Of a stretch of 64,000 nucleotides of DNA, positions 9,938 through 34,115 are shown in pieces. Both the position numbers and the translations under genes were made by a program. The DNA comes from Escherichia coli (GTDB lineage: Bacteria > Pseudomonadota > Gammaproteobacteria > Enterobacterales > Enterobacteriaceae): NCBI RefSeq assembly GCF_044324875.1, contig NZ_CP172185.1. The stretch is one strand, 5' to 3'. Under the pieces are notes generated by a model that was not told the DNA's origin, did no database searches, and worked only from the letters and a program-made list of their open reading frames with translations. The first letter of the stretch is position 1. Each line of letters starts with the position of its first letter.

Positions 9938-10681
9938 TTATTGGCGAATCAACATATACAGGCGGAACAGATAGATGAGCAGTACGGCTGAAATCAGGTT
10001 GCTCAAGGTGTTCGCCAGTACGGCACCAATTTCCGGGGTTAATGCGGCAAAAGAAGAGGCAAAAAGCAGCAACAGTGTCTTTGCCAGCAACCAGCTCAGT
10101 ACTGCGGGTGCCACCAGACGCATATTCGCCCAGGTCAGGCGCATGCTGCTTCGCATCGAGGCAAAAATGCCCATTTTGTCCTGTACCAACATCACCGGTG
10201 CCAGGGCCAATAAAATGGCCATGATAATTCCCGGAACGACCACCAGCATGATGCCAATCTGTACTAAAAGGGTAGTCAGAAAAATCAGAATAAATAACTT
10301 GGGCAATATCGGCGCACTGGCACCAATAGCTCGCAGCGCACTGACTCTCTGACCCGCAGACACCAGCTGGATAATTAATATTACGCCTCCGGCGAGAATG
10401 GCGTTACCGATTAATCCTGAAAAAGTGGACGCCGCTGAAGCCTGCAGCAAAATTTGTTGCTGTTCCGGTGACATATTCTGAACCAGGTCGAACAACCCAC
10501 TACTGCCGCTAACGGGCACGCCGTCATTGAGCTGCGCAAGCTGTGCATCACTGGGTGAGAAAACATGCCCTAACACCACTGTGATAAACGCACATAGCAA
10601 CGATACCAGCAGAATGGTCATAAATTGATTACGGAAGAAATTTCCGGTGTCACGGTATACGGACTGCGCCGTGATAGACAT
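9938..10681 (-). CDS. yciC: UPF0259 membrane protein YciC
   Basis: 247-aa polytopic membrane ORF, conserved position. Confidence 0.9.
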
Positions 10682-10875
10682 GCACTCTCCTTGAGTTTTA
10701 TGCAGGTGTTAATTAGCGGGCAATTGTACCCTGGTTAAGCCTCGGGTGGCAGCATCAGGTCTTGTATGGAAAAGCATATCTTTGTAAAGCGGAGGTAATT
10801 GCTGGCCTTCAGGCGTGGGCAAACCGCGGCAAGTGGCGAACGAGTTAATATTTGCGTAGCGAAAATATTTAAAAA

Positions 10876-10889
10876 TTGATTTAAATCAC
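10876..10889 (+). promoter_or_regulatory. FNR/CRP-family half-site pair TTGAT-ttaa-ATCAC upstream of ompW
   Basis: Close match to FNR consensus TTGAT-N4-ATCAA about 150 nt upstream of ompW ATG; ompW is known to be FNR-activated. Confidence 0.5.
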
Positions 10890-11037
10890 ATTAACCAGGA
10901 TTCTCAATGCAACTTCTAAATTAATCCAGATCAATAAATGGTGAATTATCATATGTAATGTGATCTATGTAGGATCATTTGTTACTCCAATGTAGGTATA
11001 TTCGTCACGTTTTTATAACCATAACGACGGAGCGGAT

Positions 11038-11676
11038 ATGAAAAAGTTAACAGTGGCGGCTTTGGCAGTAACAACTCTTCTCTCTGGCAGTGCCTATGCG
11101 CATGAAGCAGGCGAATTTTTTATGCGTGCAGGGTCTGCAACCGTACGTCCAACAGAAGGTGCTGGTGGTACGTTAGGAAGTCTGGGTGGATTCAGCGTGA
11201 CCAATAACACGCAACTGGGCCTGACGTTTACTTATATGGCGACCGATAACATTGGTGTGGAATTGCTGGCAGCGACGCCGTTCCGCCATAAAATCGGCAC
11301 CCGGGCGACCGGCGATATTGCAACCGTTCATCATCTGCCGCCAACACTGATGGCGCAGTGGTATTTTGGTGATGCCAGCAGCAAATTCCGTCCTTACGTT
11401 GGTGCAGGTATTAACTACACCACCTTCTTTGATAATGGATTTAACGATCATGGCAAAGAGGCGGGGCTTTCCGATCTCAGTCTGAAAGACTCCTGGGGAG
11501 CTGCCGGGCAGGTGGGGGTTGATTATCTGATTAACCGTGACTGGTTGGTTAACATGTCAGTCTGGTACATGGATATCGATACCACTGCCAATTATAAACT
11601 GGGCGGTGCACAGCAACACGATAGCGTACGCCTCGATCCGTGGGTGTTTATGTTCTCAGCAGGATATCGTTTTTAA
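11038..11676 (+). CDS. ompW: outer membrane protein W
   Basis: 212 aa; signal peptide MKKLTVAALAVTTLLSGSAYA; beta-barrel, C-terminal aromatic residue. Confidence 0.95.
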   Translation: MKKLTVAALAVTTLLSGSAYAHEAGEFFMRAGSATVRPTEGAGGTLGSLGGFSVTNNTQLGLTFTYMATDNIGVELLAATPFRHKIGTRATGDIATVHHLPPTLMAQWYFGDASSKFRPYVGAGINYTTFFDNGFNDHGKEAGLSDLSLKDSWGAAGQVGVDYLINRDWLVNMSVWYMDIDTTANYKLGGAQQHDSVRLDPWVFMFSAGYRF

Positions 11677-15443: not shown

Positions 15444-16805
15444 TTAATATGCGCGCAGCGTCTGGAAAACCGAGGCCAAAAGACGTGCGTCTTTGATGCC
15501 CGGTTGCGACTCTACAGCAGAATTAAAATCAAGTCCGGCGCAGCCGGTTTGTGCCGCTTCCACGCAGTTATCTGCGCCTAAGCCCCCCGCCAGCAGAACG
15601 TTGCAAAGCGATTGACCGTTTAACAGTGACCAGTCGAAACGTTGCCCGCTTCCACCCTGGCCGTTGTCTAAAACATATTTATCAACGTGCTGAAGCTCGC
15701 GGGCTGGCAGGGTTTCACCGACGCTTAATGCTTTCCAGATGGCAACGTTTTCAGGCAGCGCACCACGCAGCGTATCGATATACAGCTGATCTTCATTACC
15801 ATGCAGTTGCACTGCTGCCAGCGATAACACCTTAGCTTTGTCCACCACATCGGCAATATCGTGATTGCGGAACACGCCAACATACTGCAACGGTGCCGCA
15901 GCCATCACTTCCTGCGCCTGTTCAACGTTGACGCAACGCGGTGACGTCGCAACAAAAATCAACCCACCGTAAATTGCGCCCGCGTCATAAGCTGCTTTAG
16001 CATCTTGCCCACGCGTCAGGCCACATACTTTATTCTCACCCAGCAACACCCGGCGCACGGCGGCGTGCAAATCGTCATGGGCCATCAACGCCGAACCAAT
16101 CAGAAAACCGTTAGCGAAGTGGCTTAACTCGCGCACCTGAGCGTAAGTATTGATGCCGGATTCGCTGATTACCGTCACGTTGTGCCCCAGTTTCGGCGCA
16201 AGCTCGCGGGTACGGTTGAGATCAATCGACAAATCACGCAGATCGCGGTTGTTGATGCCAACGACCTTTGCCCCCAATGCAATGGCACGCTCCAGTTCCT
16301 CTTCATTACTGACTTCGGTCAGCACACCCATCTCCAGACTGTGGGCGACGGCGGCAAGCTGGCGATATTGTTCGTCATCAAGTACTGAAAGCATTAATAA
16401 GCAGGCATCGGCCTGGTAATAGCGCGCCAGATAGATCTGGTAAGGGTCGATTATGAAGTCTTTACATAAAATCGGCTGCGGGGCGATTTGACTGACGATG
16501 GGGAGGAAATCAAAGCTCCCCTGAAAATATTTCTCATCAGTCAGCACCGAAATTGCCGAAGCGTAATGTTTATAAATGGCGGCAATGCGTGCCGGATCGA
16601 AATCATCACGGATCACGCCTTTTGACGGCGACGCTTTTTTACACTCCAGAATAAACGCCGTGCGTGCGCCCTGAAGTGCATCATAAAAATGTCGCGTGCT
16701 CGGCTGAACCACATTCTGAAAACTGGCCAGCGGTTGCTGTTCTTTGCGGGTTTCTACCCAAATCGCCTTGTCTGCGACGATTTTCGCTAAAACGGTTTGC
16801 ATCAT
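15444..16805 (-). CDS. trpC: bifunctional indole-3-glycerol-phosphate synthase / phosphoribosylanthranilate isomerase
   Basis: 453-aa ORF in trp operon order. Confidence 0.97.
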
Positions 16806-21118: not shown

Positions 21119-21735
21119 GCCAGTTTTTTTATATTCATCCTGATAATCCGCAGCAACGTCTGATCAACCAAGCGGTGGAGATCGTGCGTAAAGGCGGGGT
21201 GATTGTTTATCCAACCGATTCCGGCTATGCGCTCGGCTGTAAAATTGAAGATAAAAACGCCATGGAGCGTATTTGTCGAATTCGCCAGCTGCCGGACGGT
21301 CACAACTTTACCCTGATGTGTCGCGATCTTTCTGAGCTCTCGACCTATTCATTCGTGGATAACGTTGCGTTTCGTTTGATGAAAAACAACACGCCGGGCA
21401 ACTACACCTTCATCCTGAAAGGGACGAAGGAGGTGCCACGCCGTCTGTTGCAGGAAAAACGCAAAACCATCGGTATGCGTGTGCCTTCTAACCCGATTGC
21501 GCAGGCGTTGCTTGAAGCACTGGGCGAACCGATGCTTTCCACTTCGCTAATGCTGCCAGGCAGCGAATTTACCGAATCCGATCCGGAAGAAATTAAAGAC
21601 CGTCTGGAAAAACAGGTGGACTTGATTATTCACGGCGGCTATCTCGGGCAGAAACCAACAACGGTTATTGATCTTACTGATGATACGCCGGTCGTGGTGC
21701 GTGAAGGCGTAGGTGATGTGAAGCCTTTCTTATAA
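21115..21735 (+). CDS. yciO: Sua5/YrdC-family protein YciO
   Basis: 206 aa from ATG at 21115 (ATGA overlap with yciV stop); matches remembered YciO. Confidence 0.88.
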   Translation: MSQFFYIHPDNPQQRLINQAVEIVRKGGVIVYPTDSGYALGCKIEDKNAMERICRIRQLPDGHNFTLMCRDLSELSTYSFVDNVAFRLMKNNTPGNYTFILKGTKEVPRRLLQEKRKTIGMRVPSNPIAQALLEALGEPMLSTSLMLPGSEFTESDPEEIKDRLEKQVDLIIHGGYLGQKPTTVIDLTDDTPVVVREGVGDVKPFL

Positions 21736-34002: not shown

Positions 34003-34115
34003 TTATCATCATTCTTATTACCCATTTTTAATGAATTAAAGGGCTTTTAATACACCGCAGCAATAACAGGTTGAGTTATCTCAACACAAAGTAATAACCG
34101 TTAAAGGTGTAGCCT

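What the first reader, a model, noticed from the sequence alone, without database searches (positions are those of the whole stretch)
10876..10889. FNR-type site TTGAT-N4-ATCAC in the long yciC-ompW intergenic region
The 356-bp AT-rich region upstream of ompW contains TTGATTTAAATCAC, a near-consensus FNR/CRP-family palindrome, consistent with the known anaerobic activation of ompW. It lies about 150 nt upstream of the ATG, so it may be a distal site, with additional sites closer to the promoter that I did not resolve.
Basis: partly seen in the sequence, partly recalled or inferred. Interest (0 to 1): 0.2.

Follow-up and report, generated by a model that had tools for sequence, protein, structure and literature searches.

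The report
Known upstream FNR site of ompW
The 14-base palindrome is the already published oxygen-regulator (FNR) binding site centred 126.5 bases upstream of the E. coli ompW transcription start; it is real, but it dampens ompW expression rather than switching it on.

Summary
The window is E. coli (tonB-yciABC / ompW / yciEFG-trpA). TTGATTTAAATCAC sits exactly at 10876-10889. It is letter for letter the FNR site "centred at -126.5" of the ompW promoter. That site lies under a ChIP-seq peak (Myers 2013) and was confirmed by EMSA and mutagenesis (Xiao 2016). It is reported to be in RegulonDB.

A weight matrix I built from 61 other ChIP-bound FNR sites ranks it first in the 64-kb window, at 17.9 bits.

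Published genetics reverse the implied sign. The -81.5 site activates. Mutating or deleting the -126.5 site raises anaerobic expression 2-3 fold, so it down-modulates and gives a microaerobic expression peak.

New here, and minor:
- Across 80 Enterobacteriaceae species the -81.5 site is nearly universal (76/80).
- A full -126.5 site occurs in only 15/80 (E. coli, a sister Escherichia clade, and Citrobacter species, mostly freundii-group), always 45 bp upstream.
- Its left half, AAAATTGAY, is kept in 72/80.
- Both sites are invariant in 8 diverse E. coli sequences.

Verdict: observation confirmed, already known, low interest.

The parts
10876..10889 (.). Distal FNR site TTGATTTAAATCAC, centred at -126.5 from the ompW transcription start. 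This is the finding. It is the down-modulating site.
   Evidence: The sequence is at these coordinates. The identical 14-mer is published as the -126.5 FNR site, with EMSA and mutagenesis. It appears in Myers Table S6 with PatSer score 15.03, under a ChIP peak. It is the top PWM score in the window. It is invariant in 8 diverse E. coli sequences.
10921..10934 (.). Proximal FNR site TTAATCCAGATCAA, centred at -81.5. This is the activating site.
   Evidence: Searches give the coordinates. One search reports EMSA and a roughly 3-fold loss of anaerobic expression when the site is mutated. One search gives PatSer 14.30. It is the second-best PWM hit in the window. It reaches at least 11.7 bits in 76 of 80 Enterobacteriaceae species. 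The FNR ChIP-seq summit, K-12 1311935 = window 10929, falls inside it (for the coordinate offset).
10959..10974 (+). CRP site TGTGATCTATGTAGGA, centred at -42.5.
   Evidence: Exact match and position. Published EMSA is cAMP-dependent, and deleting TGTGA abolishes induction on galactose. The site is strongly conserved across species.
10983..10998 (+). NarL site TACTCCAATGTAGGTA, centred at -18.5. It mediates nitrate repression.
   Evidence: Exact match and position. Published EMSA with phospho-NarL and mutagenesis.
10997..11002 (+). Probable -10 hexamer TATATT (-12 to -7).
   Evidence: Inferred from its position relative to the mapped start site at 11009. The block is conserved across species. 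The consensus promoter scan did not call it, because no -35 match is present, as expected for an activator-dependent promoter.
11001..11021 (-). ArcA site TGGTTATAAAAACGTGACGAA (-8 to +13).
   Evidence: Park et al. 2013 supplementary tables give K-12 coordinates 1312007-1312027, minus strand. The sequence was verified in the window.
11009..11009 (+). ompW transcription start, a G 29 nt upstream of the ATG.
   Evidence: Published 5' RLM-RACE. The base at 11009 is G and the distance to the ATG is 29. With this origin all four published site centres reproduce exactly.
11038..11676 (+). ompW coding sequence, 212 aa. This is the regulated gene.
   Evidence: ORF list. RefSeq annotation of near-identical E. 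coli genomes.

Best explanation
The element is the upstream of two FNR sites in the E. coli ompW promoter, centred at -126.5.

When oxygen falls, dimeric [4Fe-4S] FNR binds TTAATCCAGATCAA at -81.5. It raises transcription from the sigma-70 promoter (start at window 11009), partly by countering H-NS, and it works together with CRP at -42.5. A second FNR dimer binds the finding's site, 45 bp further upstream, and reduces that activation. As a result ompW peaks during the aerobic-to-anaerobic transition and then settles lower. ArcA (-8 to +13) and NarL (-18.5) add further repression.

Shown in published work: FNR binds both sites independently in EMSA, and the sign of each site's effect is known from mutagenesis.

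Inferred: how the upstream dimer lowers expression. My preferred reading is anti-activation. The -126.5 dimer has no effect unless the -81.5 dimer is activating. It most likely disturbs the productive contact between the -81.5 FNR and RNA polymerase (alpha-CTD), or the path of the upstream DNA. This would resemble the upstream FNR site of yfiD (grcA). It is not classical promoter occlusion.
For: - Exact sequence and position. All four published site centres (-126.5, -81.5, -42.5, -18.5) reproduce from the start site at 11009.
- Published binding and function: two EMSA shifts, each lost on mutating one site and both lost in the double mutant. The m-81.5 mutant is about 3-fold down. The m-126.5 mutant is about 2-fold up and the deletion about 3-fold up. 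The double mutant equals m-81.5 alone.
- Time course: expression peaks at 10 min and then declines. Deleting the -126.5 site abolishes the decline.
- In vivo: there is an FNR ChIP peak at yciC/ompW in all data sets, and ompW is classed as FNR-repressed.
- PWM: this is the best site in the 64 kb, and PatSer gives 15.03.
- Selection: the site is invariant in 8 E. coli sequences that span 91.6-100% identity over the region while the flanks vary.
- Spacing: where a full site exists, it is kept exactly 45 bp from the proximal site (15 species).
- An independent phylogenetic-footprinting paper assigns FNR to both peaks and notes that the sites are in RegulonDB.
Against: - The mechanism of down-modulation has not been demonstrated.
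- The proposed order of occupancy (-81.5 first, -126.5 only at higher FNR) rests on epistasis, which any anti-activator would give. It also runs against the PWM, which predicts the distal site to be the stronger one: 17.9 against 14.8 bits here, and 15.03 against 14.30 in PatSer.
- The ChIP-seq summit lies over the proximal site. In vivo occupancy of the distal site specifically is therefore not resolved by ChIP.
- The deletion gives more derepression than the point mutant. It also shifts upstream DNA by 14 bp, so part of the effect could come from phasing or from H-NS and ArcA rather than from FNR.
- A full distal site is absent from 65 of 80 related species, including E. albertii and the two Salmonella subspecies sampled. 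The function is therefore not general.
Confidence: 0.85

Rival explanations
1. The site is a distal activating FNR site that adds to anaerobic induction of ompW. This is the reading implied by the first reader.
For: ompW is induced anaerobically in an FNR-dependent way. The site is a strong FNR match upstream of the promoter.
Against: Mutating or deleting it increases anaerobic expression 2-3 fold. Activation is lost when only the -81.5 site is mutated. -126.5 lies well outside the -41.5 and -61.5 positions at which most FNR-regulated promoters carry their sites. Myers files ompW as FNR-repressed.
Confidence: 0.04
2. The match is a chance occurrence in AT-rich DNA and the site has no function of its own. 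The ChIP signal and the regulation would then come from the -81.5 site.
For: Consensus matches with up to 1 mismatch are as frequent as chance in the window. The identical 14-mer inside marB is not bound in vivo. The ChIP summit lies on the proximal site. The right half-site is not conserved outside a few lineages.
Against: EMSA shows a second shift that depends on this sequence. Mutating it changes expression. It is the top PWM score in the window, and two such sites in 356 bp have P of about 5e-5. It is invariant within E. coli while neighbouring bases vary. The 45-bp spacing is exact in every species that has a full site.
Confidence: 0.03
3. The site belongs, or once belonged, to the divergent transcription unit: the YkgJ-family gene that sits between yciC and ompW in many relatives, or yciC itself. 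On this reading its effect on ompW is secondary.
For: The left half, AAAATTGAY, is conserved in 72 of 80 species. In the 31 aligned species with an intact gene it lies roughly 80 bp upstream of a conserved -35/-10-like pair for the divergent YkgJ-family gene. E. coli keeps a remnant of that gene and of its promoter-like region.
Against: In E. coli the divergent gene is a 30-codon pseudogene fragment. yciC is absent from the FNR-dependent expression table. Of the 32 species with the intact gene, 29 lack a full FNR palindrome there. The site's effect on ompW is measured directly. No convincing class II promoter geometry exists on either strand (and my reading of the sequence).
Confidence: 0.05
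4. The site is a hybrid FNR/CRP target. Its right half, TCACA, is a perfect CRP half-site, so cAMP-CRP can also occupy -126.5 and compete or cooperate with FNR. This is not exclusive of the main explanation.
For: The 22-mer at 10872-10893 is the best match to the CRP 22-bp consensus in the whole window, at 17/22. The next best is 15/22, and the verified CRP site at -42.5 scores 14/22. The published CRP EMSA fragment (-120 to -3) did not include this site.
Against: The left half has T instead of the G that, from my knowledge of the literature, discriminates CRP sites from FNR sites. The FNR and CRP consensus sequences overlap heavily, so a high count is expected for any good FNR site. Destroying the -42.5 site alone removes the galactose effect. 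The TCACA half occurs in only two of the sampled species, E. coli and Escherichia sp. E1V33. I found no ChIP data for CRP at ompW.
Confidence: 0.1

Closest known systems
FNR site at -126.5 of the E. coli K-12 ompW promoter (Myers et al. 2013; Xiao et al. 2016; RegulonDB as reported by the 2026 footprinting paper)
   Same: The 14-mer is identical, the distance to the start site and ATG is identical, and the neighbouring -81.5, CRP, NarL and ArcA sites are identical. This is the same element in another E. coli strain.
   Different: Nothing differs in the site itself. The window strain differs from a K-12-like strain at four positions of the 241-bp upstream region, none of them in a mapped site.
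yfiD (grcA) promoter with tandem FNR sites (-40.5 activating, -93.5 down-regulating). The positions and roles are from my own knowledge of Marshall et al. 2001, which was not retrievable here.
   Same: There are two FNR sites. The upstream one lowers activation by the downstream one, and expression is maximal in microaerobiosis. The strong yfiD site, TTGATTTAAATCAA, differs from the ompW distal site by one base, and the two yfiD sites appear in Myers Table S6 53 bp apart.
   Different: In yfiD the activating site is at the class II position and the spacing is 53 bp, about 5 helical turns and so on the same face. In ompW the activating site is at -81.5 and the spacing is 45 bp, about 4.3 turns and roughly 100 degrees out of phase. 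ompW also needs CRP at -42.5.
cydAB and focA-pflB promoters with multiple FNR sites
   Same: Xiao et al. cite them as the precedents. FNR binds several sites with opposite effects, regulation is shared with ArcA and H-NS, and expression is maximal in microaerobiosis.
   Different: These are multi-promoter regions, and the FNR sites lie at other positions (cydAB at -53.5 in Myers Table 1). ompW has a single mapped start site.
Canonical class I and class II FNR-activated promoters (sites at -61.5 or -41.5)
   Same: The recognition sequence and the same protein.
   Different: The position, -126.5, is far upstream of any activating position, and the effect is negative.

Membership tests
FNR binding site (E. 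coli FNR regulon) | Match to the inverted repeat TTGAT-N4-ATCAA, with a PWM score in the range of sites bound in vivo | tested here: met
   It matches 9 of 10 consensus positions. It scores 17.9 bits on a PWM built from 61 other ChIP-bound sites, whose own scores range from 11.7 to 21.0 with a median of 15.4. It is the top hit in the 64 kb. Published PatSer score is 15.03.
FNR binding site (E. coli FNR regulon) | Location in a promoter region, at a defined distance from a mapped transcription start | tested here: met
   The centre, 10882.5, is at -126.5 from the RACE-mapped start at 11009.
FNR binding site (E. coli FNR regulon) | Physical binding by FNR in vitro and in vivo | not testable with these tools
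   Published work covers this. EMSA with FNR-D154A loses one shift when this site is mutated. [quoted passage not shown] Caveat: the ChIP summit sits on the -81.5 site, 46 bp away, so ChIP alone does not resolve the two sites.
FNR binding site (E. coli FNR regulon) | Expression of the target changes in an FNR-dependent way when the site is altered | not testable with these tools
   Published: m-126.5 is about 2-fold up and the deletion about 3-fold up under anaerobiosis, and the post-shift decline in expression is lost.
FNR binding site (E. coli FNR regulon) | Evolutionary conservation of the site | tested here: inconclusive
   It is invariant in 8 diverse E. coli sequences. A full site of at least 11.7 bits is present in only 15 of 80 Enterobacteriaceae species, while the left half TTGAY is kept in 72 of 80.
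Class I / class II FNR activation site | Site centred near -41.5 (class II) or near -61.5 and helical repeats of it (class I), with a positive effect | tested here: not met
   The position is -126.5 and the published effect is negative. The neighbouring -81.5 site is the activating one.
Tandem-FNR 'microaerobic peak' promoter architecture (yfiD-like) | Two FNR sites, with the upstream site lowering activation by the downstream site | tested here: met
   Two high-scoring sites lie 45 bp apart. Their opposite signs and the epistasis come from the literature. The spacing and the position of the activating site differ from yfiD, so this is a resemblance in logic rather than an identical architecture.
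CRP binding site | TGTGA-N6-TCACA with the discriminating G in each half, and cAMP-dependent binding | tested here: inconclusive
   It matches 17 of 22 positions of the 22-bp consensus, the best in the window, with a perfect right half TCACA but a left half ATTGA. Binding has not been tested, because the published EMSA fragment excluded the site.

The most novel reading that the evidence does not exclude
The complete -126.5 palindrome is a recent, lineage-restricted addition. An ancestral FNR-type half-site with an A-tract (AAAATTGAY) is kept 43-46 bp upstream of the universal -81.5 site throughout Enterobacteriaceae. It lies in a control region shared with a divergent YkgJ-family gene. It was completed into a full FNR site only in E. 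coli, a sister Escherichia clade and a group of Citrobacter species (mostly freundii-group). If so, FNR-mediated damping of ompW, and hence the microaerobic expression pulse, is specific to those lineages. Salmonella, E. albertii, Klebsiella and Enterobacter would show plain FNR activation. The conserved half-site would have some other role, still unknown.
Probability: 0.35. Interest if true: 0.3.

Novelty: already known. Interest (0 to 1): 0.08.

Why it matters
For the scan it matters mainly as a calibration point. A reader without tools correctly picked out a genuine, experimentally validated transcription-factor site from raw sequence and correctly guessed that a second site lay closer to the promoter. 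Biologically the element is part of one of the best-annotated E. coli promoters and adds nothing new.

Two modest points go beyond the literature I could read.
1. Sequence predicts the 'second-occupied' distal site to be at least as strong as the 'first-occupied' proximal one. The published sequential-occupancy model therefore needs a direct affinity measurement.
2. A full distal site is confined to a few lineages, while its left half is deeply conserved. That gives a natural experiment for how a simple activated promoter acquires pulse-type control.

Tried and rejected
1. Bare consensus count. Four hits with up to 1 mismatch against 2.8 expected is not significant on its own, so I replaced it with a PWM built from published ChIP-bound sites.

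2. Sigma-70 consensus scan of 10600-11100. It found only one weak minus-strand candidate (10752-10723) and did not call the real ompW promoter. It is uninformative for an activator-dependent promoter.

3. Second ompW promoter or divergent class II promoter driven from this site. I read the sequence at +/-41.5 from the site centre. No acceptable -10 exists on the + strand, and only TATTAA at about -44 on the minus strand. RACE found a single ompW start. Rejected.

4. Loss of the divergent YkgJ-family gene linked to gain of the distal site. A full site occurs with the gene intact (3 of 32), with a fragment (12 of 37) and never with the gene absent (0 of 11). There is no clear association. Rejected as an explanation.

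5. ArcA overlapping the distal site. The published ArcA site is at -8 to +13, not here. Rejected.

6. CRP in vivo binding data at ompW. Two literature searches found nothing usable.

7. The yfiD tandem-site paper was not retrievable. The comparison with yfiD therefore rests partly on my own knowledge, plus the two yfiD sites listed in Myers Table S6.

Full report
**What the window is**

The ORFs around the finding are tonB, yciA, yciB and yciC (9938-10681, minus strand), then ompW (11038-11676, plus strand), then yciE, yciF, yciG and trpA. An 801-bp query across the site matches 5,422 of 5,426 complete E. coli genomes at 95% identity or more. There the flanking genes are annotated yciC and ompW. 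The window is therefore an E. coli chromosome, close to but not identical with K-12.

**Checking the observation**

TTGATTTAAATCAC is at 10876-10889 exactly as stated. The intergenic region is 356 bp with 39.9% GC against 50.4% for the window, and its ompW-proximal 197 bp have 31% GC. The site centre is 155.5 nt upstream of the ATG.

A consensus search with up to one mismatch finds four sites in the window, against 2.8 expected from shuffles. The bare match is therefore not remarkable. However, two of the four lie in this one promoter: the finding, and TTAATCCAGATCAA at 10921-10934, 45 bp downstream.

I built a position weight matrix from the 61 FNR sites that Myers et al. list as lying under ChIP-seq peaks, leaving out the two ompW sites.
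- The finding scores 17.9 bits. That is the best in the 64 kb and above the 75th percentile of the training sites.
- The second ompW site scores 14.8 bits and ranks second.
- Random sequences of window size and composition contain 0.04 sites as good as the first.
- Two sites of at least 14.76 bits within 356 bp of local composition occur with P of about 5e-5.

**What it is**

Xiao et al. 2016 (PMC4886647) print this very 14-mer as the FNR site "centred at -126.5" of the ompW promoter, and TTAATCCAGATCAA as the site at -81.5. Their 5' RACE start site is a G 29 nt upstream of the ATG, which is window 11009.

With that origin, the four published sites fall at exactly the published centres:

| Site | Published centre | Window coordinates |
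|---|---|---|
| FNR distal | -126.5 | 10876-10889 |
| FNR proximal | -81.5 | 10921-10934 |
| CRP (TGTGATCTATGTAGGA) | -42.5 | 10959-10974 |
| NarL (TACTCCAATGTAGGTA) | -18.5 | 10983-10998 |

The ArcA site of Park et al. 2013 (TGGTTATAAAAACGTGACGAA, -8 to +13) maps to 11001-11021 on the minus strand.

Myers et al. 2013 (PMC3688515) list both ompW FNR sites in their genome-wide PatSer scan, with scores 15.03 and 14.30, both under a ChIP-seq peak. [quoted passage not shown] It recovers FNR for both peaks and refers to RegulonDB entries for the sites.

**How it works**

Published evidence:
- FNR-D154A gives two shifted complexes on the promoter fragment. Mutating either site removes one, and mutating both removes all binding.
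- In lacZ fusions, mutating the -81.5 site drops anaerobic expression about 3-fold, to the aerobic or fnr-deletion level.
- Mutating the -126.5 site raises expression about 2-fold, and deleting it about 3-fold.
- The double construct behaves like m-81.5 alone.
- After a shift to anaerobiosis, expression peaks at about 10 min and then declines. Without the -126.5 site it rises higher and stays up.
- H-NS represses aerobically, ArcA represses in an FNR-dependent way, CRP activates from -42.5, and NarL represses from -18.5.

The finding's site is therefore a negative, modulating FNR site, not the activating one.

The mechanism of the damping is not established. I favour anti-activation of the -81.5 dimer, through interference with alpha-CTD contacts or with the upstream DNA path, as I recall for the upstream site of yfiD. 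The reason is that the site has no effect unless -81.5 is functional, and it lies far from the core promoter. This step is inference.

**Caveats I would attach to the published model**

1. The proposed order of occupancy is proximal first, distal only at higher FNR. It is deduced from epistasis, which any anti-activator would show. By sequence the distal site is the better one in both my PWM and PatSer.

2. The K-12 to window offset is 1,301,006, verified with the ArcA site sequence. With it, the FNR ChIP-seq summit (1,311,935) maps to window 10929. That is inside the proximal site and 46 bp from the distal centre. ChIP therefore does not by itself show occupancy of the distal site. Myers' assignment to -126.5 coincides with the better PatSer score of the two sites.

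3. The 14-bp deletion also changes helical phasing.

**Evidence from related sequences**

One scan with OmpW returned the ompW locus of 80 species representatives of Enterobacteriaceae, with OmpW identity of 77-99%.

- The proximal site is present at the same distance from the ATG, at or above the lowest training-site score, in 76 of 80 species.
- The distal position reaches that score in only 15 of 80. These are E. coli, Escherichia sp. E1V33, and Citrobacter species mostly of the freundii group (C. youngae, C. werkmanii, C. portucalensis and unnamed isolates). The sequences there are TTGATCTGAATTAA or TTGATCTGTATCAG, always exactly 45 bp upstream of the proximal site.
- E. albertii, the two Salmonella subspecies sampled, Klebsiella, Enterobacter, Kosakonia and others lack a full site.
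- The left half with its A-tract, AAAATTGA(T/C), is retained in 72 of 80 species, 43-46 bp upstream of the proximal site. The column-wise conservation profile shows it as sharply as the proximal FNR and CRP sites.

[quoted passage not shown] It adds that a half-site persists.

Within E. coli I compared the window with seven other E. coli sequences. Six were chosen to span 91.6-100% identity over 10850-10945, and the seventh is strain E69 from the species scan. All eight carry both FNR sites unchanged, while bases just upstream of the distal site and between the two sites vary.

**Rivals considered**

- Activating distal site. This is contradicted by the mutagenesis.
- Chance match without function. 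This is contradicted by EMSA, the mutant phenotypes, the PWM rank and within-species invariance.
- Element of the divergent transcription unit.
  - For: many relatives carry an intact 134-aa YkgJ-family gene between yciC and ompW, transcribed away from ompW. Upstream of it is a conserved promoter-like pair, and the half-site lies roughly 80 bp upstream of that.
  - Against: E. coli has only a 30-codon remnant, and yciC is not FNR-responsive. Of the 32 species with the intact gene, 29 lack the full palindrome.
- Hybrid FNR/CRP site. The 22-mer is the best CRP-consensus match in the window, 17/22 against 14/22 for the verified CRP site. Its right half is a perfect TCACA, and the published CRP EMSA fragment excluded it. 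Against this, the left half lacks the discriminating G, and the -42.5 site accounts for the CRP effect. This reading is not excluded but is unlikely to be important.

**Comparison with what is known, and verdict**

This is not merely like a known element. It is the known element: the -126.5 FNR site of ompW, in another E. coli strain.

Its logic resembles the tandem FNR sites of yfiD, and the multi-site cydAB and focA-pflB promoters that Xiao et al. cite. The differences are in spacing (45 bp, about 4.3 turns) and in having the activating site at -81.5 above a CRP site.

Novelty: already known. Interest is low. The first reader's observation is confirmed. Its identification as a distal FNR site with a closer partner is right. 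Its implied role in activation is the wrong sign.

Noticed in passing
window 10709-10798 (minus strand); loci L015, L017, L048, L058 and others at about 815-1230: The 'intergenic' region holds the last 30 codons of a YkgJ-family cysteine-cluster gene, which PGAP calls a pseudogene. The full 134-aa gene lies between yciC and ompW, divergent from ompW. It is intact in 32 of 80 Enterobacteriaceae species, reduced to a similar C-terminal stub (from residue about 105-109) in 37 of 80 across several genera, and absent in 11. E. coli seems to keep the gene's -35-like block fused almost directly to codon ~105.
   Followed up: partly
window 10872-10880, and the orthologous position in L002-L081: The left half of the distal site plus its A-tract (AAAATTGAY) is conserved in 72 of 80 species, even where the right half is unrecognisable. 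What the half-site does in those species is unexplained.
   Followed up: partly
window 10872-10893: The distal FNR site is also the best match to the 22-bp CRP consensus in the whole window (17/22). Its right half is a perfect CRP half-site, TCACA. CRP binding here appears never to have been tested.
   Followed up: partly
window 10890-10904 (ACATTAACCAGGATT): A block immediately downstream of the distal site is invariant in the E. coli sequences compared. It is shared (TAACCAGGATT) with Citrobacter, Salmonella and Intestinirhabdus but not with other genera. None of the sources I read assigns it a factor.
   Followed up: no
window 34071-34084: The third-best FNR PWM hit, TTGAGTTATCTCAA, is the acnA-upstream site that Myers et al. 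list as not bound in vivo (H-NS region). Its offset to K-12 coordinates differs by 1,526 bp from that of the ompW sites. The window strain therefore carries about 1.5 kb extra between ompW and acnA relative to MG1655.
   Followed up: no
window 21376-21389 and 16368-16381: Two further 9/10 matches to the FNR consensus, TTGATGAAAAACAA (14.2 bits) and TTGTTCGTCATCAA (11.6 bits). I did not examine their gene context or whether they lie in promoters.
   Followed up: no
E. coli genome collection: The ompW region has 13 matches on records labelled as plasmids. In strain C311 ompW is annotated as a pseudogene with an internal stop.
   Followed up: no
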